Positions 935 to 17,969 of a stretch of 64,000 nt of DNA are shown piece after piece; the first letter of the stretch is position 1; each line of letters begins with the position of its first letter. Location of the stretch: the NCBI GenBank assembly GCA_038727135.1, contig JAVYWL010000001.1:352001-416000 (forward strand), written 5' to 3'. Below the pieces are notes generated by a model that was not told where the DNA came from, did no database searches, and saw nothing but the letters and a program-made list of their open reading frames with translations. This stretch comes from Candidatus Bathyarchaeia archaeon (GTDB taxonomy: Archaea; Thermoproteota; Bathyarchaeia; Bathyarchaeales; Bathycorpusculaceae). The position numbers and the translations under genes were made by a program.

Positions 935-2083
935 TTACTTCATTAAAAAGTTGACTATTGTGAGCTTTTGTATTTCGCTTGTGCCTTCGTAGATCTCAGT
1001 TATTTTTGCACATCTATGGAACCGCTCTACATGGTAGTCTGCCAAATAGCCGTAGCCACCAAATATTTGAATGGCGTCGTCTGTGACTTCCATTGCTACG
1101 CGGCTTGCATAAGCTTTAGCCATCGAAGTTGCCGCTGGGTTGGGTTTTTCGTGGTCGTATATCCAAGCCGCTTTATACGTGAGTAGGCGGGCGGATTCAA
1201 TTTTCATGGCCATTTCAGCCAGCTTAAAAGAGACGCCTTGGAAGTTAATTATGGGCTGTCCGAACTGTTTGCGGGTTTTGGCATAGTTTAGGGCTTTTTC
1301 AAAGGCTCCTTGGGCTATGCCGACGGCTTGGGCAGCCACGGTTATGCGGGTTCCATCGAAAAGCTCAAGCGCGTAATAAAAGCCCCTGTTTAGCTCGCCC
1401 ACAAGGTTGCTTGCAGGCACGCGAAGGTCACTTAAAGCCAGCGAACCGGTGACACATGGTCTTATGCCCATTTTGCCATGAAGTTTTGTAGCCTCTAAGC
1501 CGGGCATGCCCTTTTCTGCTAAGAAAAGGCTTTGCCCACGGTGGGGTGGGGTGGCATTGGGGTCTGTTTGGCACAGGATTATGAAGGTGTCGGCTATTGG
1601 AGCGTTTGTTATGAACTGTTTTGAGCCGTTAATAACCCATTCGTCGCCTACTCTAACAGCTGTTGTGTCCATTTTGGTTATGTCACTTCCATGCTCTGGC
1701 TCTGTGAAGGCTGCAGCAGCGATTTTATCGCCTCTAGCCAGTGGTGGAATATACTTTTCCTTCTGCTCCTCTGTGCCGTGCTTGAGCAAGACGTCGGGGA
1801 CCATTAGGTTTCCGAGGGAGACAGCCACTCCTAATCCTGGGTCAACGCGGCAGAACTCTTCAACGACTAGGCATTCTTCTAGGACGCCATATCCTTGCCC
1901 ATCATATTCTTGAGGTATGCGCATGCTTGTAAAGCCTAGTTTGGCTGCTTTCCTGTAAAGCTCCATTGGAAACTCTTCTTTTTGGTCGTATTCTAGGGCT
2001 AATTCCGGTGTGAACTCTTTTTCTGCGAATTCGCGAGCAGCCCGTTTAATCTCCATCTGTTCCTCAGTTAGTTTAAAGTCCAT
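935..2083 (-). CDS. Acyl-CoA dehydrogenase
   Basis: FTEPEHGSD, WVINGSKQFITN, R-KQFG, QIFGGYGY and IYEGTSEIQ motifs. Confidence 0.95.
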   Translation of the reverse strand: MDFKLTEEQMEIKRAAREFAEKEFTPELALEYDQKEEFPMELYRKAAKLGFTSMRIPQEYDGQGYGVLEECLVVEEFCRVDPGLGVAVSLGNLMVPDVLLKHGTEEQKEKYIPPLARGDKIAAAAFTEPEHGSDITKMDTTAVRVGDEWVINGSKQFITNAPIADTFIILCQTDPNATPPHRGQSLFLAEKGMPGLEATKLHGKMGIRPCVTGSLALSDLRVPASNLVGELNRGFYYALELFDGTRITVAAQAVGIAQGAFEKALNYAKTRKQFGQPIINFQGVSFKLAEMAMKIESARLLTYKAAWIYDHEKPNPAATSMAKAYASRVAMEVTDDAIQIFGGYGYLADYHVERFHRCAKITEIYEGTSEIQKLTIVNFLMK

Positions 2084-2104
2084 GTGGACCCCTCCATTGC
2101 TAGG

Positions 2105-3094
2105 CTATGCTTTTTGAGCTTTTACCTCGCTAATTTTGTTTTTCAGCACTGGCACAACTTTGAACAAGTCTTCAACAACGCCATAGTCTGAAAAGCTGAA
2201 TATTGGCGCCTTCGGGTCTTTGTTCACAGCGATTATCAAGTCGGAGTTTTTCATTCCCAAGACATGCTGGAAGGCTCCGCTTATGCCTAGGGCTATGTAG
2301 AGCTTTGGCTTAACAGTTTTTCCAGAAGTCCCCACCTGCCGGTCGCTTGGAAGCCAACCCTTATCCACAATTGGACGCGAGCATGCCAGCACTCCACCCA
2401 GCATTTTTGCCAACTCTTCAACCATCGGTATGTTGCTCTGGTCTTTTATTCCCCTTCCAATGCCCACAAGCACCTCTGCCGATGTTATGTCAACGCCTCC
2501 GGGCGGTGGCAAAACATATTCTAGGAACCGTTTTGTGGCTATTTCCTCTGTTAGGGGTGATGGGACCTCAACTATTTGCCCGTTCACTGGTGTGAGTGGC
2601 TTTTGAGCTTGGAAGGCTGCTTGGCGCAATGTAACCATGTAGCTTTCAGCCTTGCGGAGCGCCGCCCTAACGTTTACTTTTCCGCCGTACATCTGCCTTG
2701 TAATGGTGAATGTGTCGCCTTCGAAAGCAAGGTCTATGCAGTCTGTCGCCAATGGAATGTTTAGGGCTGCTGCAAGTCTCGGGGCAAGCTCAACACCATA
2801 AGACGTGTGCCCAATAATCGTCAGCAGGGGCTTATGCTCTTTAATTAGGTGGAAAAGAACCTTTTGGTAGGCTTCAGAATTGAAGTTTTCAAGCTTTCCA
2901 TCCTCAACAAGCAGAACCTTTTTGGCGTGCTCAGCCAAGTTTTTGGCGTGCTCTTTGACGCCCTTGCCCAAAATAACAGCCACTGGTTCAGCATTTATTT
3001 TTTCGGCTAGTTCTCTGGCTTTGGTCAGCATTTCGAAGGTTATATCCCTTAACTGGCCTTGTCTATGCTCGGCTAAAACAAAGATTTCAGCCAT
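2105..3094 (-). CDS. etfA: Electron transfer flavoprotein alpha subunit
   Basis: ACSRP, QVGTSGKTVKP, GISGAFQH and AVNKDPKAPIF FAD-binding motifs. Confidence 0.95.
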   Translation of the reverse strand: MAEIFVLAEHRQGQLRDITFEMLTKARELAEKINAEPVAVILGKGVKEHAKNLAEHAKKVLLVEDGKLENFNSEAYQKVLFHLIKEHKPLLTIIGHTSYGVELAPRLAAALNIPLATDCIDLAFEGDTFTITRQMYGGKVNVRAALRKAESYMVTLRQAAFQAQKPLTPVNGQIVEVPSPLTEEIATKRFLEYVLPPPGGVDITSAEVLVGIGRGIKDQSNIPMVEELAKMLGGVLACSRPIVDKGWLPSDRQVGTSGKTVKPKLYIALGISGAFQHVLGMKNSDLIIAVNKDPKAPIFSFSDYGVVEDLFKVVPVLKNKISEVKAQKA

Positions 3095-3096
3095 AC

Positions 3097-3891
3097 CTAA
3101 ATCAGCCCCCTAGACTTTAGGATTTCAACAATTCTTGTGGCTATTTCATCTGGGCTTCCTTTGAGGAATTCTGCCTGCTTCTCCACTGGCGGGACATAAA
3201 GCTTTTCTATCCTAAGCCATGAGCCAGCCTCGCCCACATCGTTTTCGCTTAAGCCTATGTCCGCCAACCCCATGACTTTGACCTCCTTTTGCATAGCCTT
3301 CCGAATCCCCATGATGGAGACATAACGTGGCTCATTTATGCCCGTCTGGACAGCGAAAAGGGCTGGCAACTTAACTTCTAAGCGTTCTTCTAAGCCTCCC
3401 TCAAGTTCTCGGTTAACGATGGCTTTTCCATCGCTGAACTCAATCTTCTTAACCATAGTGGCGTGTGGAATGCCGAGCAGCTCGGCTAGGACTGGGCCGA
3501 CAACGGCACTTCCATCGTCGCTGGCCTGCGCCCCTGTTAGAATTAGGTCGAAGTGGAGGTTTTTGATTACGCTGTAAAGGATTTTCGCAGTGGCATAGGC
3601 ATCTGAACCAGCAAATTTCGGGTCTGTTAGGCGTATAGCCTTGTCGGCGCCACGGGCAAGGCATTTTCGCAGCGTGCTTTCAGAGTCTTCTTGTCCAACG
3701 GTTATGGCTGTGACTGTTCCGCCGAACTTCTCCTTTATGCGCACAGCCTCCTCCAGCGCGTAGTCGTCCCACTCGTTAATATCGTAGACCAAGCCAGCCT
3801 TTTCTATGCCCTTACCAGTCGCATCAATTTTGAGCTCCGCCTCTGCTGTTTCTGGAACATGCTTAACACAAACAATAATATCCAATCGCAT
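3097..3891 (-). CDS. etfB: Electron transfer flavoprotein beta subunit
   Basis: Start reassigned to ATG at 3891 (MRLDIIVCVKHVP) with AGGAG upstream; INEWDDYALEEA, GAQASD, INEPRY. Confidence 0.93.
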   Translation of the reverse strand: MRLDIIVCVKHVPETAEAELKIDATGKGIEKAGLVYDINEWDDYALEEAVRIKEKFGGTVTAITVGQEDSESTLRKCLARGADKAIRLTDPKFAGSDAYATAKILYSVIKNLHFDLILTGAQASDDGSAVVGPVLAELLGIPHATMVKKIEFSDGKAIVNRELEGGLEERLEVKLPALFAVQTGINEPRYVSIMGIRKAMQKEVKVMGLADIGLSENDVGEAGSWLRIEKLYVPPVEKQAEFLKGSPDEIATRIVEILKSRGLI

Positions 3892-4037
3892 TTCTCTCCT
3901 AAACCGGTTTTGAATTGTGTTGTACAAACTGTTATCATATATTTTTTGCCCGACTCCGCATGCCAATTTAATGTTAAACTCTGCCTTATCCAGCAAAGTC
4001 TTTATCAAACGGAAACCGTAATGGAAACGGAGAAAAC

Positions 4038-4868
4038 ATGAAAAAGGAGATCGACTGGCTGCCAATACTAATTCAGTGCAAAGACAACGTGAAGAAGCGG
4101 ATAACCCCACTTTTAAAGACTGCACGCAAACAACAGCAACCAAACCTCGGCATCGGGGCTGGCGGCGACCCAATAAAACAGATCGACATGGAGGCGGAAA
4201 AAGCCATAGTGGAAACCATTGTTGGACAAGGCATATCATTCACTTTGATAAGCGAGGAGTCCGGCATAAGGAAATACGGCGAAAACCCAAATGTAAATTA
4301 TGTGACAGCAGACCCAATAGATGGAACAACAAACCTAACGAGGGGCATACCATTCTACGCAACATCCATAGCAGTGTCAAAAAAGCCAGAACTGAACGCT
4401 GTTCACACGGCATTGGTGGCGGACCTCTTCCACGGCACAACATACACCGCCAAGAAAAATGAAGGAGCATATCGCAACCATGAGAAAATAGTTCCATCAA
4501 AACAGACAAGCTTGGATGACGCGGTGATAGGCATAGACCTAAACACTTACAAGGCACGTGAAATTGCACCACAACTAACAAGCCTAATTGAAAAGACGAA
4601 GCACATACGCCATCTGGGAGCCAATGCCCTAGAACTGTGCTACGTGGCTGACGGAACAACAGACGCCTTTATAGACATCCGCGGAAAACTTAGAACAACA
4701 GACACGGCGGCTGCATGGCTAATAATAAGGGAGGCTGGAGCATTAATCACAATGCCGGATGGGAAGCCTTTAAACGCCAAACTGGACCCGAGGGAAAGGC
4801 TAACCTTTGTGGCTTCCGCCAACCCACAAATCCACGAAAAAATTTTGAGTCTAATAAAAAGGAGTTGA
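4038..4868 (+). CDS. Inositol monophosphatase / fructose-1,6-bisphosphatase family protein
   Basis: ISEE, DPIDGTTN, RHLGANALELCYVADG, D-AAAWLIIREAG. Confidence 0.9.
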   Translation: MKKEIDWLPILIQCKDNVKKRITPLLKTARKQQQPNLGIGAGGDPIKQIDMEAEKAIVETIVGQGISFTLISEESGIRKYGENPNVNYVTADPIDGTTNLTRGIPFYATSIAVSKKPELNAVHTALVADLFHGTTYTAKKNEGAYRNHEKIVPSKQTSLDDAVIGIDLNTYKAREIAPQLTSLIEKTKHIRHLGANALELCYVADGTTDAFIDIRGKLRTTDTAAAWLIIREAGALITMPDGKPLNAKLDPRERLTFVASANPQIHEKILSLIKRS

Positions 4869-7608: not shown

Positions 7609-8880
7609 TTAAATGGAGAACGGGAGAAAGTAAACCAACAAGGCGGTTGCATAAGTCGCTATGAAGGACGGAGTCACATACTTGTAAACCTTGCTCAAAG
7701 GACTTTTGAAGTAGTCAGCCGTAAAAGTAAAGCAAAGATGAGTAGGCGAAATAGTATATCCAAGATAGGCACTAATATACAAAAGCGCAGCAGTTTTCGC
7801 CGAAAAAGTTAGAACGCCTGTTAAAATCGGCACACTTATGGCTATTGCCCCGTGCGGAGAGCCTGTGAGAAAACCCAAAACCGCTGGAATTACTGTTAGC
7901 AGTATAACTGCGTCTACGCTTCCATTAGCAACAAACCGTTTGAAAACATCAGAAACTCCGGCAGCGGCAATCACGTTGCGAAGTAGAAAAGCTCCATAAA
8001 CAGCCAAAGTCACCCCATAAGTTCCCCAACCCCTAAGCGGTTTCACCAGCACTTCGAAGTTTAGACGGGAAATTACGGCTAAAACCACCACCCCCGCAAA
8101 AGTCGCTAAAAGAACATCAAACCCTAACCTAGACAAACCATAGCTCAAAGCACCTATAAAAACAGCCACAACAATAGTTACCATTATAGGGGAGAACGAG
8201 ATGATAAAACGTTTAAACTCCAAACCAGCTTCACCTTTTGCCGTTTCAAATTTTTCTTCGCTTTTTACGCTTGGAACTTTCCAGAAACCCACCAAAAAGC
8301 CAACAATAACCATAACTGTAACCGTTGGAATTTGAAGCAAAATAATGGAAAATAGGGATACCCCAGTTAAGGCAGCCGTCACTATCAGCACTTGGCTTAA
8401 CGGATAAACAGGAAAAATCGTGTGCCTAAACCACAAATTCACATAAGCCTTCCGCTCCGCCTTCAATTTCAACTTTTCAGCCTCCGAATCCACTATGGGA
8501 GCCGACATCAAAGCCCCACCGGCCACTTGAAGGAAACCTATCACAGCTGGAAGCACGCTTAAGACAATCTTTGGATTCTTAACAAGACGGCTCAAGCTCT
8601 CGCTTAATTTTGTGATTTCCCCAGTCTCCTTGTAAAGTTGGCTCAACCACATTATACCAAACGTCGTAAGAATAACCGATATCGCAAGGAGCCCCTCACA
8701 TCTTAAGGGATTAACAGTTGCATAGACTATGCTTGGGATACTCCACCAATCCAACGAAAGCAGAGCCAAAAGAACAGCCGTTGCGTTTAAGGTTATTCCC
8801 AAATTAACATGCCTATAAAGCAAAACGCCAAGGAAGCAAAAGGAAACAACCACAGATATCAACGGATCCAGCAGTCCCAA
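7609..8880 (-). CDS. DUF401-family polytopic membrane protein (putative transporter)
   Basis: Many TM segments; PAVIG..GGALMSAP, NLWFRH, SPTHLC motifs. Confidence 0.8.
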   Translation of the reverse strand: MGLLDPLISVVVSFCFLGVLLYRHVNLGITLNATAVLLALLSLDWWSIPSIVYATVNPLRCEGLLAISVILTTFGIMWLSQLYKETGEITKLSESLSRLVKNPKIVLSVLPAVIGFLQVAGGALMSAPIVDSEAEKLKLKAERKAYVNLWFRHTIFPVYPLSQVLIVTAALTGVSLFSIILLQIPTVTVMVIVGFLVGFWKVPSVKSEEKFETAKGEAGLEFKRFIISFSPIMVTIVVAVFIGALSYGLSRLGFDVLLATFAGVVVLAVISRLNFEVLVKPLRGWGTYGVTLAVYGAFLLRNVIAAAGVSDVFKRFVANGSVDAVILLTVIPAVLGFLTGSPHGAIAISVPILTGVLTFSAKTAALLYISAYLGYTISPTHLCFTFTADYFKSPLSKVYKYVTPSFIATYATALLVYFLPFSI

Positions 8881-8968: not shown

Positions 8969-9403
8969 ATGAAAGGAAAAGCCTTCATCTCCGGACCAAT
9001 CCAAGGCATGGAAACAAAACAATCCTATAGAGAAACCATAAGACGCATCTGCATCCGCTGCGGATACGAGCCAATTGACCCATGGCAACGCGAAAAAATA
9101 ATCTACAAAGGCACAGAAAACGGCTGGTGGCAAAAAGTACCAGCAGCAGACTTCATAAAAAGGGATTTAGAAGACATAGAAAAATGCGACATCCTAATCG
9201 CCTACATGCCAAAACTCTCAGCCGGAACATGCATGGAACTCTTCTACGCAAAAATGAAAGGGAAGAAAACCATATGCATATGCAAAATCAAAAACCCAAG
9301 CCCGTGGATAACCACCCACTCAGACATAATTCTCAAGGAAATTAGACAACTCGAACAAACATTAAAAGCCACACCCTCTTGTGACAAGGTCCCAAAGGCT
9401 TAA
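8969..9403 (+). CDS. Nucleoside 2-deoxyribosyltransferase-like / nucleotide N-hydrolase
   Basis: FISGP, RDLEDIEKCDILIA and SAGTCMEL motifs. Confidence 0.8.
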   Translation: MKGKAFISGPIQGMETKQSYRETIRRICIRCGYEPIDPWQREKIIYKGTENGWWQKVPAADFIKRDLEDIEKCDILIAYMPKLSAGTCMELFYAKMKGKKTICICKIKNPSPWITTHSDIILKEIRQLEQTLKATPSCDKVPKA

Positions 9404-10290
9404 AGCTTCAATGCAGCCCTAAGCCTAGCCGACCTAGCCCTAGGATTCTCCTTAACCTCCTCCTTAGATGGCCTAAGGGGCTTTTTCGTCAAAATTTTAA
9501 CGGCGCCCTCTTTGGCTTTCTCCCTCAGAAAATTTTTTACAATACGATCCTCCAAAGAATGAAAAGAGATAATCACAAGTCTACCTCCTTTATCCAATAC
9601 ATCAAGGGCTTGAGGCAAAGCCCTCTCTAAATTCTCCAACTCATTATTCACAGCTATCCTCAAAGCCTGAAAAGTCCTAGTGGCAAAATGAATTCGCCCC
9701 CTATGATACCATGAAGGCGTCGCTCTCTCAACAGCCATAACCAAATCCACAGTAGTCTTCAAAGGCCTAGACCGCACAATTTCTTCGGCAATCCTCCGCG
9801 CAAACCTCTCCTGCCCATAAACCCTCAAAACCCTCTCAATATCCCTCAAACTCCAAAGATTAACTATGGCTTCAGCAGTCAACGGATTTTCCGGGCTGTA
9901 CCGCATATCAAGAGGCTCATTCCGAAGAAAGGAGAACCCACGACCACTCTCCTCTAAATGCCAGCTTGACAAACCCAAATCAAACAAAACCCCAAAAACG
10001 CGTCCAAATGTATACCTCTTGACAATTTCACTCAAATTGGCAAAGCTACCGCAAACGAGAATTAGACGTCCTTCGTAATCTGTACCTTCAACCCTCCTCT
10101 TCAGCCTCTCCAAAATCAAAGGATCAGCATCCACCCCCAAAACCCTACCAGAAGGCCCCGTCCGCTCCAAAACAGCAAAAGCATGACCACCCAAACCCAC
10201 AGTGCAATCAACAAAATCCTCACCAGGCTTAGGATCAAGAAAACGAATAACCTCGTCCTTCATAACTGGCAAATGCAAACCGAACACCAC
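9400..10290 (-). CDS. rsmH: 16S rRNA m4C1402 methyltransferase RsmH/MraW (bacterial type)
   Basis: HLPVM, DCTVGLGGH, DLGLSS, RGFSF..EPLDMR, ATRTFQALRIAVNNEL, ISFHSLEDRIVK, NPRARSARLR. Confidence 0.95.
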   Translation of the reverse strand: MVFGLHLPVMKDEVIRFLDPKPGEDFVDCTVGLGGHAFAVLERTGPSGRVLGVDADPLILERLKRRVEGTDYEGRLILVCGSFANLSEIVKRYTFGRVFGVLFDLGLSSWHLEESGRGFSFLRNEPLDMRYSPENPLTAEAIVNLWSLRDIERVLRVYGQERFARRIAEEIVRSRPLKTTVDLVMAVERATPSWYHRGRIHFATRTFQALRIAVNNELENLERALPQALDVLDKGGRLVIISFHSLEDRIVKNFLREKAKEGAVKILTKKPLRPSKEEVKENPRARSARLRAALKL

Positions 10291-10359
10291 AACCTCACAT
10301 AAACTTCAAAGCACACACGCATAGGTAAAAACCGCATTTCATTTTAACATTTACGAAAA

Positions 10360-10432
10360 TGCGGCCGCCGGGATTTGAACCCGGGTCGCCGGCTCGGGAG
10401 GCCGAAGTCCTACCAGGCTAGACTACGGCCGC
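10360..10432 (-). tRNA. tRNA-Gly(CCC), no intron, CCA not encoded
   Basis: Reverse complement is GCGGCCGTAGTCTAGCCTGGTAGGACTTCGGCCTCCCGAGCCGGCGACCCGGGTTCAAATCCCGGCGGCCGCA; cloverleaf with T-loop TTCAAAT and anticodon CCC; TATA-like TTTATATG at 10484-10477. Confidence 0.96.
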
Positions 10433-10503
10433 AACAAAACTAACCTCCTTTTGCTATTGTTGGTTTGTAAAATTAACATATAAAGCCTTTTTTGGAATTC
10501 AGG

Positions 10504-12069
10504 TTATTCCGCGTGGTGTTTTGGTTCCGCAACCTTTTCATTGGCCTTTTTTGAGAAGTAGATGGTAGTTAGGATGAAGATAGTGGTTGTCGCAGCAAAA
10601 ATGTAAATTAGACTTCTTAGGTTTTGTGTTTGGTTTTGGTACAACAAGTTTATGTAATTGAATGCACCTTGGAGTCCACCATAATCTTCTAGAAGATTAT
10701 AGAGTGTCGTATTTAATATGCTAAGCTTTTCAATAAACATGCTAACGCTTACATTGAATTCCAGAATTTTGGCATTTAATTCTAAAAGCATGGAATACGA
10801 TTCATTTAAGCCATAATACTTGTCAAGTAACTTTGAATAATCGGAGAGCAACTGATAATACCAGTCCAAAAGCTCAGAATACACTATTTTAATGGAGCAG
10901 TTACCAAAATGCTCAATGTACAAGTAGGTATTTTCCACATCGTCAACATTAAGAAAAGTTGCATTAACTTCTTCATCATTAACAAGAACTGCATGTATAC
11001 ATTTCATTAACACTTTAGGAATGGCAACCCTGCTAAAACTTGCAGAATTACTACTGATACTCGCATTAAAAAGTATAATTTTAGATTTTGTTTCAACCAA
11101 AGTTTTAAATGTAAAATCAAAAATCGTTGAATTGGATATTATGACAACATGATAAGCATTCCCATTACAATATGCAATAAATGTTCTGTACTGTCCCATT
11201 AAAGGGTAATGATCGGTATTTCCTTTAGTAATATTGTAAGGAAAATCTCCTATGCCATCTTTGTTTAGATCTTTTCCATTATAGTCGTCCCAATAATTTC
11301 CTTCTCCGTTGAAATCCCATATGTTATTCACTTGTTCAACATATGCATTGTGGTTGTTACCAATGAAATTATTCCGGTAGAAAACATTACCGTTGCTGTT
11401 TAAAAGGATGTATGTACCCCAATAATTACCAGAAAGAGTATTTTCGCATATTAAATTATTAATAGAGTAATAGTAAACATCGATTCCATCTGAGTTATCT
11501 TTTATAATGTTTCTACAAATGACATTGCTACTTGAATAAAAGAGTAAAATGCCGATGTTATTTGCTGATATTACATTTTCACATATTTGATTTCGGCTCG
11601 AAGAATCTATTTGAATTCCTATGTCATTCACTTTTATATAATTGTTACTTATAATCACGCCACTGGCGAGTCGTTCTATGTATATCCCACAACCTGCAGT
11701 TGAGCTATTCTGTATAGTAAAGCCGCTAATGTTGACGTTTGAAGCTTGTATTGAAATTACGTTTCCTAAGCTACGTCCATCGATGATTGTGTTTTCTCGG
11801 TCTTTTCCAATTAGCGTGACACTCTTGTTAATAACTATATTCTCGTAATATATACCTGAACTCACGTGAATAATATCTCCGGGACTTGCGTTGTTAATGG
11901 CTTCTTGGATATTCTTGTAAGATTCAGAAGGACCAACTTCCAAAATGGACGGGCTGGCATGTATGATCATATTGCTTCTACTAACTGCCAAGCATAAGCA
12001 CGATATTAACAGCAGAGTTAAAGGTTTTTCCATCAATTTTGCATTCATTTCTAATCCCCATAATAGCAT
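10504..12069 (-). CDS. NosD-type right-handed beta-helix surface protein with C-terminal coiled coil and TM anchor
   Basis: Signal-like N-terminus, IQEAINNASPGD, Asn-rich parallel beta-helix repeats, GNYWDDY..D..GIGD..Y, C-terminal TM; visibly AT-rich. Start uncertain. Confidence 0.8.
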   Translation of the reverse strand: MLLWGLEMNAKLMEKPLTLLLISCLCLAVSRSNMIIHASPSILEVGPSESYKNIQEAINNASPGDIIHVSSGIYYENIVINKSVTLIGKDRENTIIDGRSLGNVISIQASNVNISGFTIQNSSTAGCGIYIERLASGVIISNNYIKVNDIGIQIDSSSRNQICENVISANNIGILLFYSSSNVICRNIIKDNSDGIDVYYYSINNLICENTLSGNYWGTYILLNSNGNVFYRNNFIGNNHNAYVEQVNNIWDFNGEGNYWDDYNGKDLNKDGIGDFPYNITKGNTDHYPLMGQYRTFIAYCNGNAYHVVIISNSTIFDFTFKTLVETKSKIILFNASISSNSASFSRVAIPKVLMKCIHAVLVNDEEVNATFLNVDDVENTYLYIEHFGNCSIKIVYSELLDWYYQLLSDYSKLLDKYYGLNESYSMLLELNAKILEFNVSVSMFIEKLSILNTTLYNLLEDYGGLQGAFNYINLLYQNQTQNLRSLIYIFAATTTIFILTTIYFSKKANEKVAEPKHHAE

Positions 12070-13374: not shown

Positions 13375-14457
13375 TTGTCTCGAGAGTTTACTTATGCTGG
13401 TGTTGGTGTTGATAGAAGGCTGAGGGTTAGGGCGAAGAGTGCTTTGCGTTTTTTGAGAAAGACTTATTGTTTTAGTCGCTATGGTGGGGTTGTCTATCTT
13501 CCTTATGGGGTTGTTTTTCCTTTTCGTGAAGGCGTTTATTTGGATCTTGTGATTGAAGGGGTTGGCACTAAGGTTTTGGTAGCCCAGTTAGCCGACAAGT
13601 ATGATACTATTGGTGTTGATGGTGTGGCCATGGCTGTTAATGATGTTATTCGTTCTGGCGCTAAGCCTTTGGCTGTTGTTGATAATATTCATGCTCAGGT
13701 TTCTGATCCGGACTTGGTTAGGGAGTGGATGAAGGGTATTGTGAGGGGGGCTGTTGAGGCTGAGTGTGTTGTTTCTGGCGGTGAGATTGGTGATGTTGCT
13801 GAGTTGATTAAGGGTTTGGTGGAAGGGAAGGGCTTTGACATGGTTTTTGCCACTGTTGGCGAAGTTTCTGCAGACAAGATTATTTATGGTAAGGATTTGG
13901 AGCCCGGTGATGTTGTTGTTGGCTTGAAGAGTTCTGGGATTCACAGTAATGGTGTTACTTTGGCGCGTAGGGTTTTGTTTAAGTGTTGGGGTGGCATGTA
14001 TGAGCCGTTTGATGTTCCAGAGCCTCTTGAAAGAGAGCTAGTTTATGAAGTTTTGGAGCCTACTAGGATTTATGTTAAGCCTTTTCTGAGGGTTGCGGAC
14101 GAGGTTAGAGTCAAGGCGGCTGTGCACATTACTGGTGACGCTTATTTGAAGTTTGATCGTTTGATATTTTTCTCGAGGGGCGTTGGTTTTGAGTTTGACA
14201 ATTTTAAGCCTCAGCCAATTTTTGAGGTGATTCAGAGGGCTGCTTCTGAGCTTGGAGGCAAAATAACTGATGAAGAGATGTTTAAAACGTTTAATATGGG
14301 TTGGGGCTTCGCAATAGTGGTTAACAAGCAGGATGCGGACAAGGCGATTGACGTTTTGGAAAGGTCTGGGGTCCACGCCGAAATCATAGGACATGTGACA
14401 GACACTCGTGGAATCCGAATCTTCTATAAGGGTAAGAGGATAGTTTTGAAAAGGTAG
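13375..14457 (+). CDS. purM: Phosphoribosylformylglycinamidine cyclo-ligase (AIR synthase)
   Basis: TYAGVGVD, EGVGTK, AMAVND, SSGIHSNG, HITG, TFNMGWG. Confidence 0.92.
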   Translation: MSREFTYAGVGVDRRLRVRAKSALRFLRKTYCFSRYGGVVYLPYGVVFPFREGVYLDLVIEGVGTKVLVAQLADKYDTIGVDGVAMAVNDVIRSGAKPLAVVDNIHAQVSDPDLVREWMKGIVRGAVEAECVVSGGEIGDVAELIKGLVEGKGFDMVFATVGEVSADKIIYGKDLEPGDVVVGLKSSGIHSNGVTLARRVLFKCWGGMYEPFDVPEPLERELVYEVLEPTRIYVKPFLRVADEVRVKAAVHITGDAYLKFDRLIFFSRGVGFEFDNFKPQPIFEVIQRAASELGGKITDEEMFKTFNMGWGFAIVVNKQDADKAIDVLERSGVHAEIIGHVTDTRGIRIFYKGKRIVLKR

Positions 14458-14511
14458 GTTTGCCTTTTCTGTGGTGAAAGCGTTTAAATCGGCTCATGTG
14501 AAATTTAGCCT

Positions 14512-14763
14512 ATGAAATATCGTTTGAAAATTGAGGTTGGCTTGAAGCCAGGGCACAGCGATCCGGAAGGTGAAACCACAGCCCGTTTGCTTAGGGAGCT
14601 TGGCTATAATGTTGAGAGGGTGGGCGTCAGCAAGGTTTACAATGTTGTTGTTTGGGCTGATTCCCAAGAGGAAGCCTTAGCGAAGGCTGAGGATATGTGT
14701 AAGAGACTTTTGGCTAATCCAACAAAGGACAATTATACCATATTGGTTGAGGGGGAGAAATGA
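14512..14763 (+). CDS. purS: FGAM synthase subunit PurS
   Basis: LKPGHSDPEG, LLANP; located between purM and purL. Confidence 0.92.
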   Translation: MKYRLKIEVGLKPGHSDPEGETTARLLRELGYNVERVGVSKVYNVVVWADSQEEALAKAEDMCKRLLANPTKDNYTILVEGEK

Positions 14764-17150
14764 ACGGCGGCAGCCTTTACATCCGCAGGGATACGCCTTT
14801 CCCGCTTTTTGAAATAGCCTTGGCACAAGCTTCCGACCAGCAGTTGCTAAATGTTAGTCTTGAGCTTGGTTTGGGTTTAAGCTTGGATGAGATGAGGACT
14901 GTTCAGAAATACTTTAGGGAGAAGGGTAGAAATCCCACGGATGTTGAGCTTCAAACCATTGGACAGACTTGGTCTGAGCATTGCTTCCATAAGACCTTCA
15001 AGGGCACAGTAAAATTTGGTGGAAAAGAGATTAACAATCTTTTCAAAACTTATATTGCGAGGGTGACGGAGGAGCTTAATCCCCGCTGGTGTTTTTCGGT
15101 TTTTGAGGACAACGCTGGAATAATTCGCTTTGAAAAAGGTTATGGCATAGCCGTGAAGGTTGAAACTCATAATCATCCGTCGGCTATTGAGCCTTTTGGT
15201 GGGGCAGCTACTGGTGTTGGCGGCGTTATACGAGATATTTTAGGAGTTTGGGCTGACCCCATTGCATGTACCGATGTTTTAGGTTTTGGTCCGCTGGACT
15301 ACCCTTATGAAAGGCTTCCGCCCGGGGTTAAGCACCCAAAATACTTGTATATGGGCGTGGTTGCCGGCATTGGAAGTTACGGCAATAACATGGGGATTCC
15401 AACGGTTAATGGTGCCATATGCTTTGACGAGAGTTATGTGGGCAACGTGGTTGTCTACTGTGGATGTGTCGGGCTTCTGCCACTGAAAAAGTTTAGGAGA
15501 AACGCCAAACCCGGCGACTTAATTGTTTTGGCTGGAGGAAAAACTGGAAGGGACGGCATTCACGGGGTTACTTTTGCCTCTGCTGAACTAACAGAAAAGT
15601 CCGAGGAGATTTCTAGACCAGCCGTTCAAATTGCAAACCCCATCGAGGAGGAGAAGCTTAAGAGGGCGATAATTGCCATCAGAGATGCTGAGTTGGCTTC
15701 AGCCATAACAGACCTTGGCGGAGGCGGCTTATCCTCTGCTGTTGGCGAAACCGCCAAACGCTTCGGATGCGGCGCCGTTGTGGAGCTTGACAAAGTGCCG
15801 CTGAAATATCCAGGGTTGGCTCCTTGGGAAATCTACATCTCCGAATCCCAAGAAAGGATGCTTTTGGCTGCTCCACCAGAAAACTTGGCGCGGATGCTGG
15901 AGATTTTTGAGGGTGAAAATGTCGAAGCCACTGTTATTGGGCGGTATACTGAAGACAAGGTTTTGCGCATTTATTATAGCGGAGAAAAAGTTGCAGAGCT
16001 AGACATCCCATTCCTTTTTGAGCCGCCAAGAACTGTTAGGAAAGCCGAGTATAAGCCACCAACTTTTGCGGAGCCAAACTTTCCAGAGCCAAAAGACTTG
16101 ACCAGCGTTGTTTTGAGACTCCTTTCCTCTCCCAATATTGCAAGTAAAGAGAGCGTCATCAGAACCTATGACCATGAAGTTAAGGGGAACACTGTTCTAA
16201 AGCCTTTGCATGGGGATTTTGGCGGCCCCAATGATGCCGCTGTCCTGAAGCCGTTAAAGGACTCTTGGCGGGGTTTGGTTATTTCTTGTGGCATAAACCC
16301 CCAATATGGGAAGGTTGACCCTTATTGGATGGCGGCTTCAGCTATAGACGAGGCGATAAGGAACAATGTGGCTGTGGGCGGCAGAAGAATCGCTCTGCTT
16401 GACAATTTTACTTGGGGAAACCCTGAAAAACCTGATAGGCTCGGGAGCCTAGTTAGGGCCTGTGAGGCATGTTACGATTTTGCTAAAGCCTTTGGAACGC
16501 CCTTCGTTTCTGGGAAGGACAGCCTATACAACGAGTCTCCTCTTGGTCCGGTCACGCCGACGCTGTTGATAACGGCTATTGGGATAATTCCAGACATCCG
16601 CGTGGCAGTTTCGTTGGATGTTAAGGAGCCTGGCAGTTCCATTTACATTGTTGGTAAAACCTACCGTGAGTTGGGTGGTTCAGAGTATTATAGACTAATG
16701 GGGGTTGTTGGAAAAACCGTGCCCAAGGTGCGTGTCAACCATGCGAGGAAAGCGTTTAAGGCATTGACCATGGCTATTGATCATGGCTTAGTTAATGCTT
16801 GCCATGACTTGTCAGAGGGGGGTTTGGCTGTTGCGGCGGCGGAGATGGCTTTTTCTGGTGGCTATGGCTTGGAGCTGGATTTGCGGCTTGTCCCAACGGA
16901 GGGCTTAAAAAGAAATGACTTTATTCTCTTCGCCGAGTCCAATAGCCGCTTCCTCGTGGAAGTTCCAGAAAAATGTGAGGAGGATTTTGAGGCTGTCATG
17001 CGTGGGTGTGCCTTTGCAAAAATTGGAAGGGTGACGGCTACGCCAACGCTGTGTGTCTATGGCTTGGATAGGAATGTTGTGGTAGATGCGTCTTTAAGCG
17101 ATTTGCTGACTTGGTGGAAACGTACCCTCAGTGGCAGTGGTGAAGACTAA
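14760..17150 (+). CDS. purL: FGAM synthase subunit PurL
   Basis: WSEHCFHK, KVETHNHPSAIEPFGGAATGVGGVIRD, SESQERM, HDLSEGG. Confidence 0.96.
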   Translation: MNGGSLYIRRDTPFPLFEIALAQASDQQLLNVSLELGLGLSLDEMRTVQKYFREKGRNPTDVELQTIGQTWSEHCFHKTFKGTVKFGGKEINNLFKTYIARVTEELNPRWCFSVFEDNAGIIRFEKGYGIAVKVETHNHPSAIEPFGGAATGVGGVIRDILGVWADPIACTDVLGFGPLDYPYERLPPGVKHPKYLYMGVVAGIGSYGNNMGIPTVNGAICFDESYVGNVVVYCGCVGLLPLKKFRRNAKPGDLIVLAGGKTGRDGIHGVTFASAELTEKSEEISRPAVQIANPIEEEKLKRAIIAIRDAELASAITDLGGGGLSSAVGETAKRFGCGAVVELDKVPLKYPGLAPWEIYISESQERMLLAAPPENLARMLEIFEGENVEATVIGRYTEDKVLRIYYSGEKVAELDIPFLFEPPRTVRKAEYKPPTFAEPNFPEPKDLTSVVLRLLSSPNIASKESVIRTYDHEVKGNTVLKPLHGDFGGPNDAAVLKPLKDSWRGLVISCGINPQYGKVDPYWMAASAIDEAIRNNVAVGGRRIALLDNFTWGNPEKPDRLGSLVRACEACYDFAKAFGTPFVSGKDSLYNESPLGPVTPTLLITAIGIIPDIRVAVSLDVKEPGSSIYIVGKTYRELGGSEYYRLMGVVGKTVPKVRVNHARKAFKALTMAIDHGLVNACHDLSEGGLAVAAAEMAFSGGYGLELDLRLVPTEGLKRNDFILFAESNSRFLVEVPEKCEEDFEAVMRGCAFAKIGRVTATPTLCVYGLDRNVVVDASLSDLLTWWKRTLSGSGED

Positions 17151-17969
17151 ATGAAAAGAGAGGAGATTAAAATTTGCATTCTGCGCGTTGGCGGAACCAA
17201 TTGCGATGCGGAAACTAAAACAGCCTTTGAAGATTTAGGCGTTCAAGCCCAAATCCTCCACGTGAATGAGGTGGTTAAACGGCGAAACCTTCTGGACTAT
17301 AACGCCTTGGTTTTTCCAGGCGGATTCTCTTACGGGGATTATGTACGTGCCGGCGCCATTTGGGCCAAGTGGATGCTCGCCAAAATGGGAAAAGAGCTGG
17401 AGGCTTTTGTGGAAGAGGGGCGTCCAATCCTCGGCATCTGCAACGGTTTCCAAGTTCTTGTTGAGGCTGGCTTACTTCCAGCATTTGACGGCATAAGCCC
17501 TTATCCAGAGGCAGCACTAGCCACAAACCATCCGCCGGGCTACAATTGCCGCTGGGTTTACATAAAACACGAGAACAACGGAAAGTGCATATTCACAAAG
17601 AAAATTCCAAAGGGCAAGGTTTTGCGTATGCCGGTCGCCCATGCAGAGGGCAGATTTCTATTCGCAAAAGAAAAGGAGAAGCAGTATTTGGAGAGGCTTT
17701 ACAAGAATGACCAGCTGGTCTTCAGATACTGCACAAAAGACGGCGAATATGCGGAAGGACGTTACCCGATAAATCCAAACGGCTCATTCCACGACATTGT
17801 GGGCATATGCAACCCAGAAGGCACAGTTTTCGGATTGATGCCCCATCCGGAAAGAGCCTTCTACTGGTGGCAACAGCCAGACTGGACAAGGCAGAAGATT
17901 ATGCCCCAATACGGGGATGGAAAACTAATTTTTGAAAGCCTAATCGACTATCTAGAGAAGCGGTTTTAA
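17151..17969 (+). CDS. purQ: FGAM synthase glutaminase subunit PurQ
   Basis: GTNCD, PGGFSYGD, GICNGFQ, AHAEG, GLMPHPER. Confidence 0.96.
   Translation: MKREEIKICILRVGGTNCDAETKTAFEDLGVQAQILHVNEVVKRRNLLDYNALVFPGGFSYGDYVRAGAIWAKWMLAKMGKELEAFVEEGRPILGICNGFQVLVEAGLLPAFDGISPYPEAALATNHPPGYNCRWVYIKHENNGKCIFTKKIPKGKVLRMPVAHAEGRFLFAKEKEKQYLERLYKNDQLVFRYCTKDGEYAEGRYPINPNGSFHDIVGICNPEGTVFGLMPHPERAFYWWQQPDWTRQKIMPQYGDGKLIFESLIDYLEKRF

What the first reader, a model, noticed from the sequence alone, without database searches (positions are those of the whole stretch)
9400..10290. Intact bacterial-type rsmH (16S m4C1402 methyltransferase) in an archaeal chromosome, next to a tRNA
Seen: a full-length RsmH with all hallmark motifs, about 70 bp downstream of tRNA-Gly and without mraZ/ftsL/dcw context. 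Known: RsmH/MraW is a bacterial and organellar (METTL15) enzyme and is not a standard archaeal gene. Inference: horizontal acquisition. The compact form (FLDPKPGEDFVDCT, ILTKKPLRPSKEEVKENPR) reminds me of Patescibacteria/CPR RsmH, which is unverified. It could add a bacterial decoding-site modification to an archaeal ribosome.
Basis: partly seen in the sequence, partly recalled or inferred. Interest (0 to 1): 0.7.

Follow-up and report, generated by a model that had tools for sequence, protein, structure and literature searches.

The report
Bacterial rsmH gene in hot-spring Bathyarchaeia
An archaeon from hot springs carries an intact, well-kept copy of a bacterial gene that methylates a key base in the ribosome's decoding site; the gene came from tiny CPR bacteria long ago and has been inherited by a whole group of related archaea.

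Summary
ORF 9400-10290(-) is a full-length RsmH (TIGR00006 301 bits against a cut-off of 154). It lies 68 nt downstream of tRNA-Gly(CCC), with no dcw genes nearby, 362 kb inside an 820-kb Bathyarchaeia contig.

Horizontal origin is supported, and the CPR guess was right.
- **Distribution:** RsmH was found in 3 of 401 genomes sampled from the phylum, all in one family, and in 39 of 201 genomes (14 of 70 genera) of that family.
- **Nearest relatives:** these are Patescibacteria RsmH (54-63% identity) in mraZ-rsmH-small ORF-PBP context, and the trees nest the archaeal genes among them.

The transfer is old, not recent. A core clade shares the gene at one locus. dN/dS is 0.07-0.18 and GC matches the genome. 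Three other lineages carry divergent copies at other loci, so one or several transfers remain possible (AU p 0.099).

New here: the genome has no RsmI. It does have a conserved C/D-box sRNA whose guide places C1402 at the D+5 position. I predict m4Cm1402 made by a mixed archaeal and bacterial route. Activity is untested.

The parts
9400..10290 (-). rsmH: 16S rRNA (cytosine-1402 N4) methyltransferase homologue. It is 296 aa if read from GTG 10290; other in-frame starts are at 10287, 10278 and 10263.
   Evidence: PF01795 318 bits. TIGR00006 301 bits against a cut-off of 154. Full-length alignment to 1M6Y, 1WG8 and 3TKA. All 28 invariant columns of a 30-sequence family alignment are kept. dN/dS is 0.07-0.18 against orthologues.
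10359..10433 (-). tRNA-Gly(CCC), directly upstream of rsmH on the same strand
   Evidence: ARAGORN; Rfam tRNA 64.3 bits. The same tRNA-rsmH arrangement occurs in G001, G005, G007 and G011, and a tRNA-Gly(TCC) sits upstream in G018. In metagenome unitigs it behaves as a repeat, with depth 4,500-8,200 against about 100 for its flanks.
10340..10348 (-). Conserved A/T-rich element in the tRNA-rsmH spacer, about 50 nt upstream of the start. Possibly an archaeal TATA box for rsmH; this is inference only.
   Evidence: Aligned in the four genus-g1 spacers of A2, with its four central A invariant in all 5 rows while the surrounding spacer varies. A GAGGT Shine-Dalgarno-like motif lies at 10292-10296. 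No transcript data.
8969..9403 (+). Nucleoside 2-deoxyribosyltransferase-like gene (native), tail to tail with rsmH with a 4-nt overlap
   Evidence: PF05014 39.9 bits. Lies next to rsmH in 8 genera. Also present next to DUF401 without rsmH in G021 and G019. Carries stops or is fragmented in G001, G002, G009, G011 and G017.
7609..8880 (-). DUF401 / TIGR00529-family membrane protein (native), divergent from the NDT-like gene; marks the locus
   Evidence: PF04165 116.8 bits. Orthologues in 32 of 41 relatives, including other families of the order.

Best explanation
The ORF is a working RsmH that an ancestor of one subclade of a Bathyarchaeia family acquired from a Patescibacteria (CPR, Parcubacteria-type) bacterium. 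It lost its mraZ/dcw neighbours and settled next to a native NDT-like/DUF401 gene pair. Since then it has been inherited vertically under purifying selection in about ten genera.

I infer that it still does what RsmH does in bacteria and METTL15 does in mitochondria. It would bind the late small ribosomal subunit from the interface side and transfer a methyl group from SAM to N4 of the universally conserved cytosine equivalent to E. coli C1402, at the P site in helix 44.

The genome has no RsmI. It does have fibrillarin, Nop5 and a conserved C/D-box sRNA whose guide pairs with 16S positions 1400-1408 so that C1402 sits at the D+5 position. The 2'-O-methyl group is therefore probably already supplied the archaeal way, as for Cm1376 of Pyrococcus abyssi. 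RsmH would add the N4 methyl, giving bacterial-type m4Cm by a mixed route.

Shown: identity, intactness, phyletic distribution, CPR affinity, synteny, selection, presence of the target base, and presence and conservation of the guide RNA candidate.

Inferred: enzyme activity, its substrate in an archaeal 30S, expression, and the Cm step.

My odds: about 0.9 for the CPR-to-Bathyarchaeia transfer, about 0.65 for m4C at the C1402 equivalent, about 0.45 for the full m4Cm scheme.
For: Identity and intactness:
- (scores above).
- No stop codon in any of the 17 RsmH matches in 16 of 41 related genomes.
- The adjacent NDT-like gene shows stops or fragments in 5 genomes.
- dN/dS by NG86 is 0.068-0.184 in the 12 pairs where dS could be estimated.

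Distribution:
- Genus: 12 of 13 other genomes.
- Family f1: 15 of 24. The 11 other families of the order: 0 of 16.
- Class sample: 24 of 301 genomes matched at E <= 0.001. Only 6 matches are full length and 2 are contig-end fragments, all in f1. The other 16 are 18-29-bit N-terminal matches to roughly 250-aa ORFs.
- Phylum sample: 3 of 401.
- Family sample: 39 of 201 genomes and 14 of 70 genera, near-universal inside positive genera (g1 10/10, g35 8/9, g6 3/4).

Donor:
- L038 (Parcubacteria group) 60%, L040 (Patescibacteria group) 56% and L039 (labelled Saccharibacteria) 54% identity. Each has MraZ upstream and a PBP transpeptidase downstream.
- P0122, 63% identical, is named Candidatus Gribaldobacteria. 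Its kin are named Nealsonbacteria, Pacebacteria and Patescibacteria.
- In the quick IQ-TREE of 72 rows, the 14 archaeal rows lie in a 29-row clade (SH-aLRT 95) with 4 Patescibacteria and 11 unnamed rows. That clade sits in a 38-row clade (88) with no row of any other named phylum.
- FastTree of 240 rows agrees.

Vertical inheritance:
- The PurL FastTree of 53 genomes has a 17-row clade (SH-like 100) holding 16 RsmH-positive genomes and G705, which is 91% complete.
- The RsmH tree has a matching 20-row core clade (99).
- rsmH lies tail to tail with the NDT-like gene in 8 genera.
- rsmH GC is 46.2% against 44.5% for the genome.

Not an artefact:
- The contig is 820 kb.
- Metagenome unitigs from three studies bridge the NDT/rsmH junction.

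Target and partner:
- The 16S carries the universal motif around C1402.
- TIGR00096 (RsmI) was not found in the genome.
- Fibrillarin (329 bits) and Nop5 (262 bits) are adjacent on C2.
- The sRNA candidate at L189:652-721 has an invariant C box and D box. Its guide core is invariant in 24 of 25 aligned homologues, the central hairpin varies while staying pairable, and the flanks are unconserved. It was found in 26 of 41 relatives, including RsmH-lacking ones.

Literature (passages seen):
- The position is m4Cm in bacteria but Cm in P. abyssi, yeast and human (PMC7005279, Table 4).
- RsmH alone makes m4C1402 on 30S subunits lacking both methyl groups (PMC2831307).
Against: - No biochemical or expression evidence. 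The one RNA run laid had no contig on rsmH.
- E. coli RsmH needs an assembled bacterial 30S, not naked rRNA. Archaeal 30S proteins differ, and recognition there is assumed, not shown.
- The guide match alone is not significant. My scan found 2 sites genome-wide where I estimate about 4 by chance. The case rests on the boxes and the conservation.
- The C' and D' boxes are degenerate, and Rfam C/D models score far below their thresholds (sR2 16.7 bits against 42).
- Tree support is SH-aLRT or SH-like only. The bootstrap ('careful') search did not finish in 739 s. Several rows have deviant composition.
- 11 of the 29 rows in the key clade are unnamed.
- PurL is a single-gene proxy for the species tree.
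- The phylum, class and family figures come from samples.
Confidence: 0.7

Rival explanations
1. The gene is RsmH by descent, but in the archaeal host it has shifted to another substrate. This could be another rRNA or tRNA cytosine, or a moonlighting role. The C1402 equivalent would then not be N4-methylated.
For: The bacterial enzyme recognises the assembled 30S particle, not naked rRNA (PMC2831307), and archaeal 30S proteins differ. The gene has lost both its operon partners and RsmI.
Against: All 28 invariant and 30 nearly invariant family columns listed include the window protein as first row. It aligns without large gaps to T. maritima MraW over residues 6-295. No accelerated evolution is seen, with dN/dS 0.07-0.18. 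Branch lengths inside the core clade are short compared with the CPR neighbours. The mitochondrial homologue METTL15 keeps the same target on a very different small subunit (PDB titles; abstract of PMC7641309).
Confidence: 0.15
2. History variant: Bathyarchaeia took RsmH from CPR bacteria two or three separate times. One transfer gave the core clade at the NDT locus. One or two more gave genera g36, g42 and g263 at other loci. This contrasts with a single transfer followed by relocation and loss. It concerns the family as a whole; the window's own copy belongs to the core clade either way.
For: - In the free RsmH tree, g42 and g36 group with Parcubacteria L038 (SH-aLRT 94), and G684 (g263) falls among CPR representatives, apart from the 20-row core clade.
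- Their RsmH is only 59-64% identical to the window's, although their PurL is 79-81% identical. Core-clade genera show the same PurL identity with RsmH at 73-79%.
- Their loci differ. G684 and G723 have a histone-deacetylase-family neighbour. G754 (g36) has asparaginase, THUMP and Cgi121 neighbours. None of G684, G723 and the three g36 loci has NDT or DUF401 within 3-7 kb.
- In the PurL tree they lie outside the core clade.
Against: The AU test does not reject a tree with all 25 archaeal sequences together (delta lnL 23.1, p 0.099). No starred branch forces more than one origin.
Confidence: 0.5
3. RsmH is an ancient archaeal gene inherited vertically and lost almost everywhere else in Archaea. 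The likeness to CPR genes would reflect archaea-to-CPR transfer or slow evolution.
For: An unrooted tree cannot by itself give the direction of transfer. The gene is vertically inherited within its clade.
Against: Found in 3 of 401 phylum genomes, and among the 301 class genomes only 8 have a real match, all in one family. Found in 0 of 4 archaeal controls against 10 of 10 bacterial controls. The CPR relatives keep the bacterial dcw context. The archaeal sequences are nested several nodes deep among Patescibacteria, with Chloroflexota and other phyla further out.
Confidence: 0.03
4. Assembly or binning artefact: a CPR fragment joined into an archaeal contig.
For: The genome is a metagenome-type assembly with 2.3% estimated contamination. 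Short unitigs break at the tRNA, which is a high-copy word in the community.
Against: The gene is 362 kb inside an 820-kb contig. The same rsmH/NDT/DUF401 order recurs in independently assembled genomes of 8 genera. Unitigs of three studies cross the NDT/rsmH junction. GC equals the genome's. The closest CPR gene is only 63% identical.
Confidence: 0.01

Closest known systems
Bacterial RsmH/MraW (E. coli RsmH, PDB 3TKA; Thermotoga maritima MraW, PDB 1M6Y/1N2X; Thermus thermophilus 1WG8)
   Same: Same family above the equivalog cut-off. Same length class, and a continuous alignment over residues 6-295. The SAM-binding and family-invariant residues are kept. The target base and its sequence context exist in the host 16S.
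   Different: The host is an archaeon. There is no mraZ, ftsL or PBP operon context and no RsmI partner. The 30S particle it must recognise has archaeal proteins, and G rather than A at position 1408 (output). Activity is untested.
Patescibacteria (CPR) RsmH: L038 Parcubacteria group, L040 Patescibacteria group, P0122 Candidatus Gribaldobacteria
   Same: These are the nearest relatives by identity (54-63%) and by tree position. They are of similar length, 293-302 aa.
   Different: The CPR genes sit in mraZ-rsmH-small ORF-PBP order. The archaeal gene has been moved next to native archaeal genes, and its GC matches its host.
METTL15 (mitochondrial 12S m4C839/840 methyltransferase) and plant CMAL
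   Same: Precedents for an RsmH homologue that works outside bacteria on a divergent small subunit at the equivalent cytosine, without RsmI-type context (PDB titles; abstracts of PMC7641309 and PMC7102989). METTL15 chains score 170-174 bits.
   Different: Those came with the organelle and act on bacterial-descended ribosomes. Here the ribosome is archaeal and the gene came by lateral transfer. In the PDB matches, METTL15 aligns only over residues 4-257.
Archaeal/eukaryotic Cm at the C1402 equivalent (Cm1376 in Pyrococcus abyssi, Cm1639 in yeast, Cm1703 in human)
   Same: The candidate C/D-box sRNA (L189:652-721) would direct exactly this 2'-O-methylation by the D+5 rule. Fibrillarin and Nop5 are present (PMC7005279 Table 4).
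   Different: Adding RsmH would turn Cm into m4Cm, which that table lists as a bacterial mark. The sRNA is predicted only. Its C' and D' boxes are degenerate, and Rfam C/D models score below threshold.

Membership tests
RsmH / MraW (TIGR00006, PF01795) | Full-length match to the family models above their curated cut-offs | tested here: met
   TIGR00006 301.2 bits (cut-off 154.3), residues 5-293 on profile positions 6-307 of 310. PF01795 318.1 bits (cut-off 27).
RsmH / MraW (TIGR00006, PF01795) | SAM-dependent methyltransferase core with the family's invariant residues (glycine-rich loop with His, acidic residues, the D-L-G-x-S-S stretch; the motif names are recalled) | tested here: met
   The window protein is the reference row of alignment A1. 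All 28 invariant columns (including D28, T30, G34, G35, H36, D104, G106, R130, E247) are by definition present in it. Residue-by-residue alignment to SAM-binding T. maritima MraW.
RsmH / MraW (TIGR00006, PF01795) | Two-domain architecture: a Rossmann core interrupted by the helical insertion domain | tested here: met
   By sequence only. The alignment to 1M6Y over query 6-295 and chain 10-295 is continuous, with no large gap. No structure was predicted here.
RsmH / MraW (TIGR00006, PF01795) | Substrate: N4 of C1402 of 16S rRNA in the 30S subunit | not testable with these tools
   The target motif is present in the host 16S (L035 608-623). Methylation itself needs MS, nanopore or an enzyme assay.
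RsmH / MraW (TIGR00006, PF01795) | Typical bacterial context: first genes of the dcw cluster (mraZ-rsmH-ftsL-ftsI), with RsmI elsewhere in the genome. This is typical of the family, not defining. | tested here: not met
   The neighbours are an NDT-like gene, tRNA-Gly and a NosD-like gene. MraZ gave only marginal partial hits elsewhere. RsmI TIGR00096 was not found. The CPR relatives do have this context.
Archaeal C/D-box sRNA (guide for 2'-O-methylation), for the candidate at L189:652-721 | C box (RUGAUGA) near the 5' end and D box (CUGA) near the 3' end | tested here: met
   Both boxes are present and invariant in 25 of 25 aligned homologues.
Archaeal C/D-box sRNA (guide for 2'-O-methylation), for the candidate at L189:652-721 | Guide of about 9-12 nt complementary to rRNA, with the target paired to the fifth nucleotide upstream of box D | tested here: met
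   Nine Watson-Crick pairs with 16S positions 1400-1408, with C1402 at D+5. The guide core is invariant in 24 of 25. The match alone is within chance: 2 found against about 4 expected by my estimate.
Archaeal C/D-box sRNA (guide for 2'-O-methylation), for the candidate at L189:652-721 | Internal C' and D' boxes at the standard spacing | tested here: inconclusive
   The C'-like box carries an extra base. The D' position is CTGA in G015 only and degenerate elsewhere. A 4-5-bp hairpin lies between them.
Archaeal C/D-box sRNA (guide for 2'-O-methylation), for the candidate at L189:652-721 | Match to a curated Rfam C/D family | tested here: not met
   sR2 16.7 bits (gathering 42) and sR3 12.9 bits (gathering 41). 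Both align over the whole model. These families were built on other archaea (recalled).

The most novel reading that the evidence does not exclude
A clade of hot-spring Bathyarchaeia builds the bacterial P-site mark m4Cm1402 on an archaeal ribosome by a chimeric route. A native C/D-box sRNP would supply the 2'-O-methyl group and a CPR-derived RsmH the N4-methyl group, which makes RsmI unnecessary. CPR-type rsmH may have entered Bathyarchaeia more than once, which would point to repeated genetic contact between these two groups.
Probability: 0.4. Interest if true: 0.65.

Novelty: new member of a known kind. Interest (0 to 1): 0.5.

Why it matters
rRNA modifications at the decoding centre are among the marks used to tell the bacterial ribosome from the archaeal and eukaryotic one. 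A published comparison lists m4Cm1402 as bacterial and Cm as archaeal/eukaryotic (PMC7005279, Table 4, passage seen).

A ribosome-modifying enzyme that crossed domains and has been kept under purifying selection in about 14 genera suggests that the N4-methyl group is useful on an archaeal P site. It gives a natural system for asking what that methyl group does for start-codon selection and reading-frame maintenance outside bacteria.

It is also a dated, well-supported case of CPR-to-archaeon gene flow. The predicted division of labour between a guide-RNA methylase and a stand-alone bacterial methylase on one nucleotide can be tested directly.

Database pipelines already label these proteins RsmH. 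My five full-text searches on this question found no paper that discusses them.

Tried and rejected
**Unfinished tree.** The bootstrap ('careful') IQ-TREE search on 72 rows did not finish in three attempts (739 s). All the IQ-TREE results I cite are the 'quick' trees with SH-aLRT support.

**Expression.** The only run on record as RNA that I laid (X19, sediment metatranscriptome, 6% of words) gave seven short contigs, none on rsmH. This says nothing either way.

**Contig continuity across the tRNA.** No listed unitig bridges 10347-10409, because the tRNA is a community-wide repeat. I rely on synteny in other genomes instead.

**tRNA as integration site.**
- I compared the tRNA-Gly genes upstream of rsmH in G000, G001, G005, G011 (CCC) and G018 (TCC).
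- I also found a tRNA-Gly(GCC) next to the NDT-like gene in RsmH-lacking G021.
- Isoacceptors and orientations differ, so no simple insertion-at-tRNA scenario could be drawn.
- I did not search for flanking repeats.

**Empty site.** In G021 and G019 the space downstream of the NDT-like gene holds unrelated genes. No clean pre-insertion site was recovered.

**D' guide.** Its predicted target word was not found in any assembled rRNA. Only the 3' part of the 16S was found, and I did not look for 23S. The nine genomic hits look random.

**MraZ.** The two marginal hits cover 24-35 of 72 profile positions in 80-95-aa frames. I did not treat them as MraZ.

**Weak Pfam matches in family f35 and others** (18-29 bits, profile positions 9-99 only). 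I read these as other SAM methyltransferases, not RsmH.

**Not done:**
- a structure prediction, judged unnecessary given solved homologues at 200-266 bits;
- a survey of archaeal phyla other than the host's, for which I had no handle;
- a concatenated-marker species tree.

Supplementary files of papers were closed. The supplement of Kimura & Suzuki (their Figure S1, phyletic distribution) may bear on the claim that archaea lack rsmH.
Full report
**What is there**

The ORF at 9400-10290 on the minus strand encodes 296 residues from a GTG.
- It matches Pfam PF01795 (MraW methylase) at 318 bits over almost the whole profile.
- It matches the NCBIfam equivalog model for RsmH, TIGR00006, at 301 bits against a cut-off of 154.
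- It aligns from residue 6 to 295 with the solved Thermotoga maritima MraW (266 bits). It also aligns with Thermus thermophilus 1WG8 (220 bits), E. coli RsmH 3TKA (202 bits) and, over residues 4-257, mammalian METTL15 (170-174 bits).
- In a 30-sequence alignment with its nearest cluster representatives there are 28 invariant and 30 nearly invariant columns. The window protein, as first row, carries the invariant ones.

tRNA-Gly(CCC) lies at 10359-10433 on the same strand, 68 nt upstream of the GTG.

The neighbours are not dcw genes:
- a nucleoside 2-deoxyribosyltransferase-like (NDT-like) gene, 8969-9403, converging on rsmH with a 4-nt overlap;
- a DUF401 membrane protein, 7609-8880;
- a NosD-like beta-helix protein, 10504-12069.

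Several in-frame starts are possible: GTG 10290 or 10287, TTG 10278, ATG 10263. The family-conserved His6 and Val9 favour one of the first three. Many database homologues are annotated from the ATG at 287 aa. The protein is of ordinary RsmH length, not notably compact.

**The host is an archaeon and the locus is not an artefact**

- The window is positions 352001-416000 of an 820,020-bp contig. The assembly is 1.55 Mb in 7 contigs, 94.7% complete, with 2.3% contamination.
- The partial 16S at the start of contig C2 scores 671 bits on the archaeal SSU model.
- Every one of the 120 best protein homologues that bears a name is called an RsmH of a Bathyarchaeia, Bathyarchaeota, Bathyarchaeales or Nitrososphaerota archaeon.
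- Near-identical DNA is held by hot-spring metagenomes. Nine runs from three studies hold 65-77% of the sampled words, and one of them may be the source.
- Unitigs from one run of each of the three studies cross the NDT/rsmH junction (X1 record 4, X2 record 19, X9 record 27).
- Unitigs break at the tRNA, which is a high-depth repeat in those communities.
- The tRNA-rsmH order recurs in four other genomes of the genus.

**How widely the gene occurs**

| Sample | RsmH found |
|---|---|
| Own genus, other genomes | 12 of 13 (the miss is 64% complete) |
| Own family f1, nearest relatives | 15 of 24 |
| The 11 other families of the order | 0 of 16 |
| Class sample (301 genomes) | 24 matched at E <= 0.001, but only 6 full length and 2 contig-end fragments, all in f1 |
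| Phylum sample (401 genomes) | 3, all in f1 |
| Family f1 sample (201 genomes) | 39 genomes, 14 of 70 genera |

- The other 16 class matches are 18-29-bit hits to the N-terminal SAM-binding region of roughly 250-aa frames. I read these as other methyltransferases.
- Inside positive genera the gene is nearly universal: g1 10/10, g35 8/9, g6 3/4, g42 2/2, g257 2/3.
- The tool's named controls give 10 of 10 bacteria and 0 of 4 archaea.
- All of these are samples, so I say 'not found in those searched', not 'absent'.
- Kimura and Suzuki wrote in 2010 that neither rsmH nor rsmI had been found in archaeal species (PMC2831307, passage seen). A 2021 paper reports no MraW orthologue in pseudomurein-containing methanogens (PMC10117817, passage seen).

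**Where it came from**

A profile-free search of 1.84 billion cluster representatives gave a handful of hits at 54-63% identity, then a long tail at 44-53%.

The best non-archaeal loci were:
- L038, Parcubacteria group, 60%;
- L040, Patescibacteria group, 56%;
- L039, labelled Saccharibacteria, 54%.

Chloroflexota follow at 45-50% and other phyla at 40-49%.

In all three CPR loci rsmH is preceded by an MraZ gene and followed by a small ORF and a PBP transpeptidase. This is the bacterial dcw order, so these are real bacterial genes and not misbinned archaeal ones. The representative closest by identity (P0122, 63%) is named Candidatus Gribaldobacteria. Its own named kin are Nealsonbacteria, Pacebacteria and Patescibacteria.

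Trees:
- FastTree on 240 rows puts the 15 archaeal rows inside an 89-row clade (SH-like 95). Its named rows are nearly all Patescibacteria; the exceptions are one row labelled Gammaproteobacteria and one labelled Acidobacteriota.
- A quick IQ-TREE (LG+C20+F+G4 PMSF) on 72 rows puts the 14 archaeal rows in a 29-row clade (SH-aLRT 95) with 4 Patescibacteria and 11 unnamed rows. That clade sits within a 38-row clade (88) holding no row from any other named phylum.
- The bootstrap search did not finish.

The direction of transfer follows from distribution. The gene is universal in the bacterial controls and sits in its operon in CPR. In the archaeal phylum it is confined to part of one family.

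**The transfer is old, and inheritance since then is vertical**

- A PurL tree of 53 genomes of the family (FastTree; a single gene, so only a proxy) has a 17-row clade (SH-like 100) made of 16 RsmH-positive genomes and G705. G705 is 91% complete, and its congener G735 has the gene.
- The RsmH tree has a matching core clade of 20 rows (SH-aLRT 99). It shows the same genus-level groupings: g1, g35, and G690 with G706.
- In 8 genera of this core (g1, g5, g35, g257, g269, g270, g280, g285) rsmH lies tail to tail with the NDT-like gene, usually followed by DUF401.
- The NDT-DUF401 pair exists without rsmH in G021 and G019, so the pair is native and rsmH was added beside it.
- rsmH GC (46.2%; GC3 44.9%) equals the genome's (44.5%).
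- Pairwise dN/dS (NG86) is 0.068-0.184 in the 12 pairs where dS was not saturated or zero.
- None of the 17 RsmH matches in the 41-genome set has an internal stop. The adjacent NDT-like gene carries stops or is in pieces in G001, G002, G009, G011 and G017.

**One transfer or several**

Three further lineages carry RsmH outside the core clade of the PurL tree: g36 (three genomes), g42 and g263.
- Their proteins are only 59-64% identical to the window's, though their PurL is as similar (79-81%) as that of core genera whose RsmH is 73-79% identical.
- In the free tree, g42 and g36 group with Parcubacteria L038 (94), and G684 falls among CPR representatives.
- Their loci differ from the core's. 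They have histone-deacetylase-family, ArgRS, asparaginase, THUMP and Cgi121 neighbours, and no NDT or DUF401.

This looks like repeated uptake. However, the AU test does not reject a single archaeal clade (delta lnL 23.1, p 0.099). I leave it open at about even odds.

**How it most likely works**

The host 16S has the universal sequence around C1402. RsmI was not found.

Published work (passages seen):
- RsmH alone makes m4C1402 and RsmI alone makes Cm1402 on 30S subunits from a double knockout. Neither enzyme acts on naked 16S or on 70S. Loss of the N4 methyl raises non-AUG initiation and lowers UGA read-through (PMC2831307).
- A comparative table lists m4Cm at this base in E. coli and T. thermophilus, but Cm in Pyrococcus abyssi (Cm1376), yeast and human (PMC7005279).

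I therefore asked whether this genome has a C/D-box guide for that base. I scanned for a D box preceded by a guide that pairs with 16S 1399-1408, with C1402 opposite the fifth nucleotide. The scan gave two sites, and I estimate about four by chance, so the match alone proves nothing.

One of the two sites, at C1:~272153-272222 (L189:652-721, 80 kb outside the window), has every other mark of an archaeal C/D sRNA:
- a C box;
- a central hairpin;
- a C'-like box;
- a guide with nine Watson-Crick pairs to positions 1400-1408;
- a D box;
- A/T-rich unconserved flanks.

Homologues were found in 26 of 41 relatives, including RsmH-lacking genomes and four other families.

In the alignment of 25 homologues:
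- the C and D boxes are invariant;
- the guide core is invariant in 24;
- the hairpin stem changes while staying pairable;
- conservation stops at the box boundaries.

Rfam C/D models align over their full length but score far below threshold. Fibrillarin and Nop5 are adjacent on C2.

My reading is that Cm at this base is the ancestral state of the order. The RsmH-bearing clade adds the N4 methyl and so reaches m4Cm without RsmI. This is inference from sequence. Neither methylation nor expression has been observed.

**Comparison with what is known**

The protein is a member of the RsmH family by every sequence test I could apply. The features not met (operon context, RsmI partner) are typical of bacteria, not defining.
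- It works like bacterial RsmH.
- Like METTL15 and plant CMAL, it is an RsmH homologue serving a non-standard small subunit.
- Unlike them, it serves an archaeal ribosome and arrived by lateral transfer.

Annotation pipelines already call these proteins RsmH, so the sequence is in the databases. Five full-text searches turned up no paper that notes or explains RsmH in Bathyarchaeia. The searches were: RsmH + archaea; Bathyarchaeota + HGT + methyltransferase + 16S rRNA; MraW + archaeal; Bathyarchaeia + Patescibacteria + HGT; m4Cm + archaeal + 16S rRNA. Subscription journals and supplements were not searchable.

**Verdict**

- The donor group is identified as CPR/Parcubacteria-type.
- The transfer is old and clade-wide, not a recent island.
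- The tRNA adjacency is incidental, or at most weakly suggestive.

It is a new member of a known enzyme family in an unexpected domain. It comes with a testable prediction about a hybrid modification pathway. Interest is moderate.

Noticed in passing
L189:652-721 (= G000:C1:~272153-272222, + strand; about 80 kb upstream of the window): Candidate C/D-box sRNA conserved in 26 of 41 relatives. Its D guide pairs with 16S positions 1400-1408 and puts C1402 at D+5. The D' guide also has a conserved core, but I found no target for it in the assembled rRNA.
   Followed up: partly
window 10504-12069 (-): NosD-like / right-handed beta-helix protein, 521 aa, with an N-terminal hydrophobic stretch and a C-terminal hydrophobic stretch (read by eye from the translation). 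GC is 33.6% against 44.5% for the genome. In two hot-spring runs, unitig depth over 11007-11674 drops to 3.5-23, from about 45-60 on either side. This suggests a strain-variable surface protein.
   Followed up: no
window 8969-9403 (+) and its orthologues in G001, G002, G009, G011, G017: The NDT-like gene next to rsmH is intact in the window. It carries in-frame stops or survives only as fragments in five related genomes, while rsmH beside it stays intact.
   Followed up: partly
G007:C16:5847-8510 and G007:C1:98185-100852: This 74%-complete genome holds two full rsmH/NDT/DUF401 loci on two contigs. In one, DUF401 is 99% identical to the window's, and in the other 86%. This looks like two strains binned together, not a duplication.
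   Followed up: no
window 935-4239 (-) and 13375-17969 (+): An acyl-CoA dehydrogenase with two ETF-domain (electron transfer flavoprotein) genes, one carrying the ETF-alpha FAD-binding domain. Further on, a purine-synthesis cluster: an AIR-synthase-related protein, PurL (796 aa) and a PurQ-type amidotransferase. This is ordinary metabolic context.
   Followed up: no
G000:C2:149979-150073, G000:C3:97332-97428, L179:3940-4038, L180:1426-1523: ARAGORN reports over-long (95-99 nt) tRNAs with odd or unreadable anticodons, probably intron-containing archaeal tRNAs. One of them lies 64 nt upstream of rsmH in G724.
   Followed up: no
L035:624-626 (G000:C2): The host 16S reads G at the position equivalent to E. 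coli A1408, next to the RsmH target. The sRNA guide pairs with this G.
   Followed up: no
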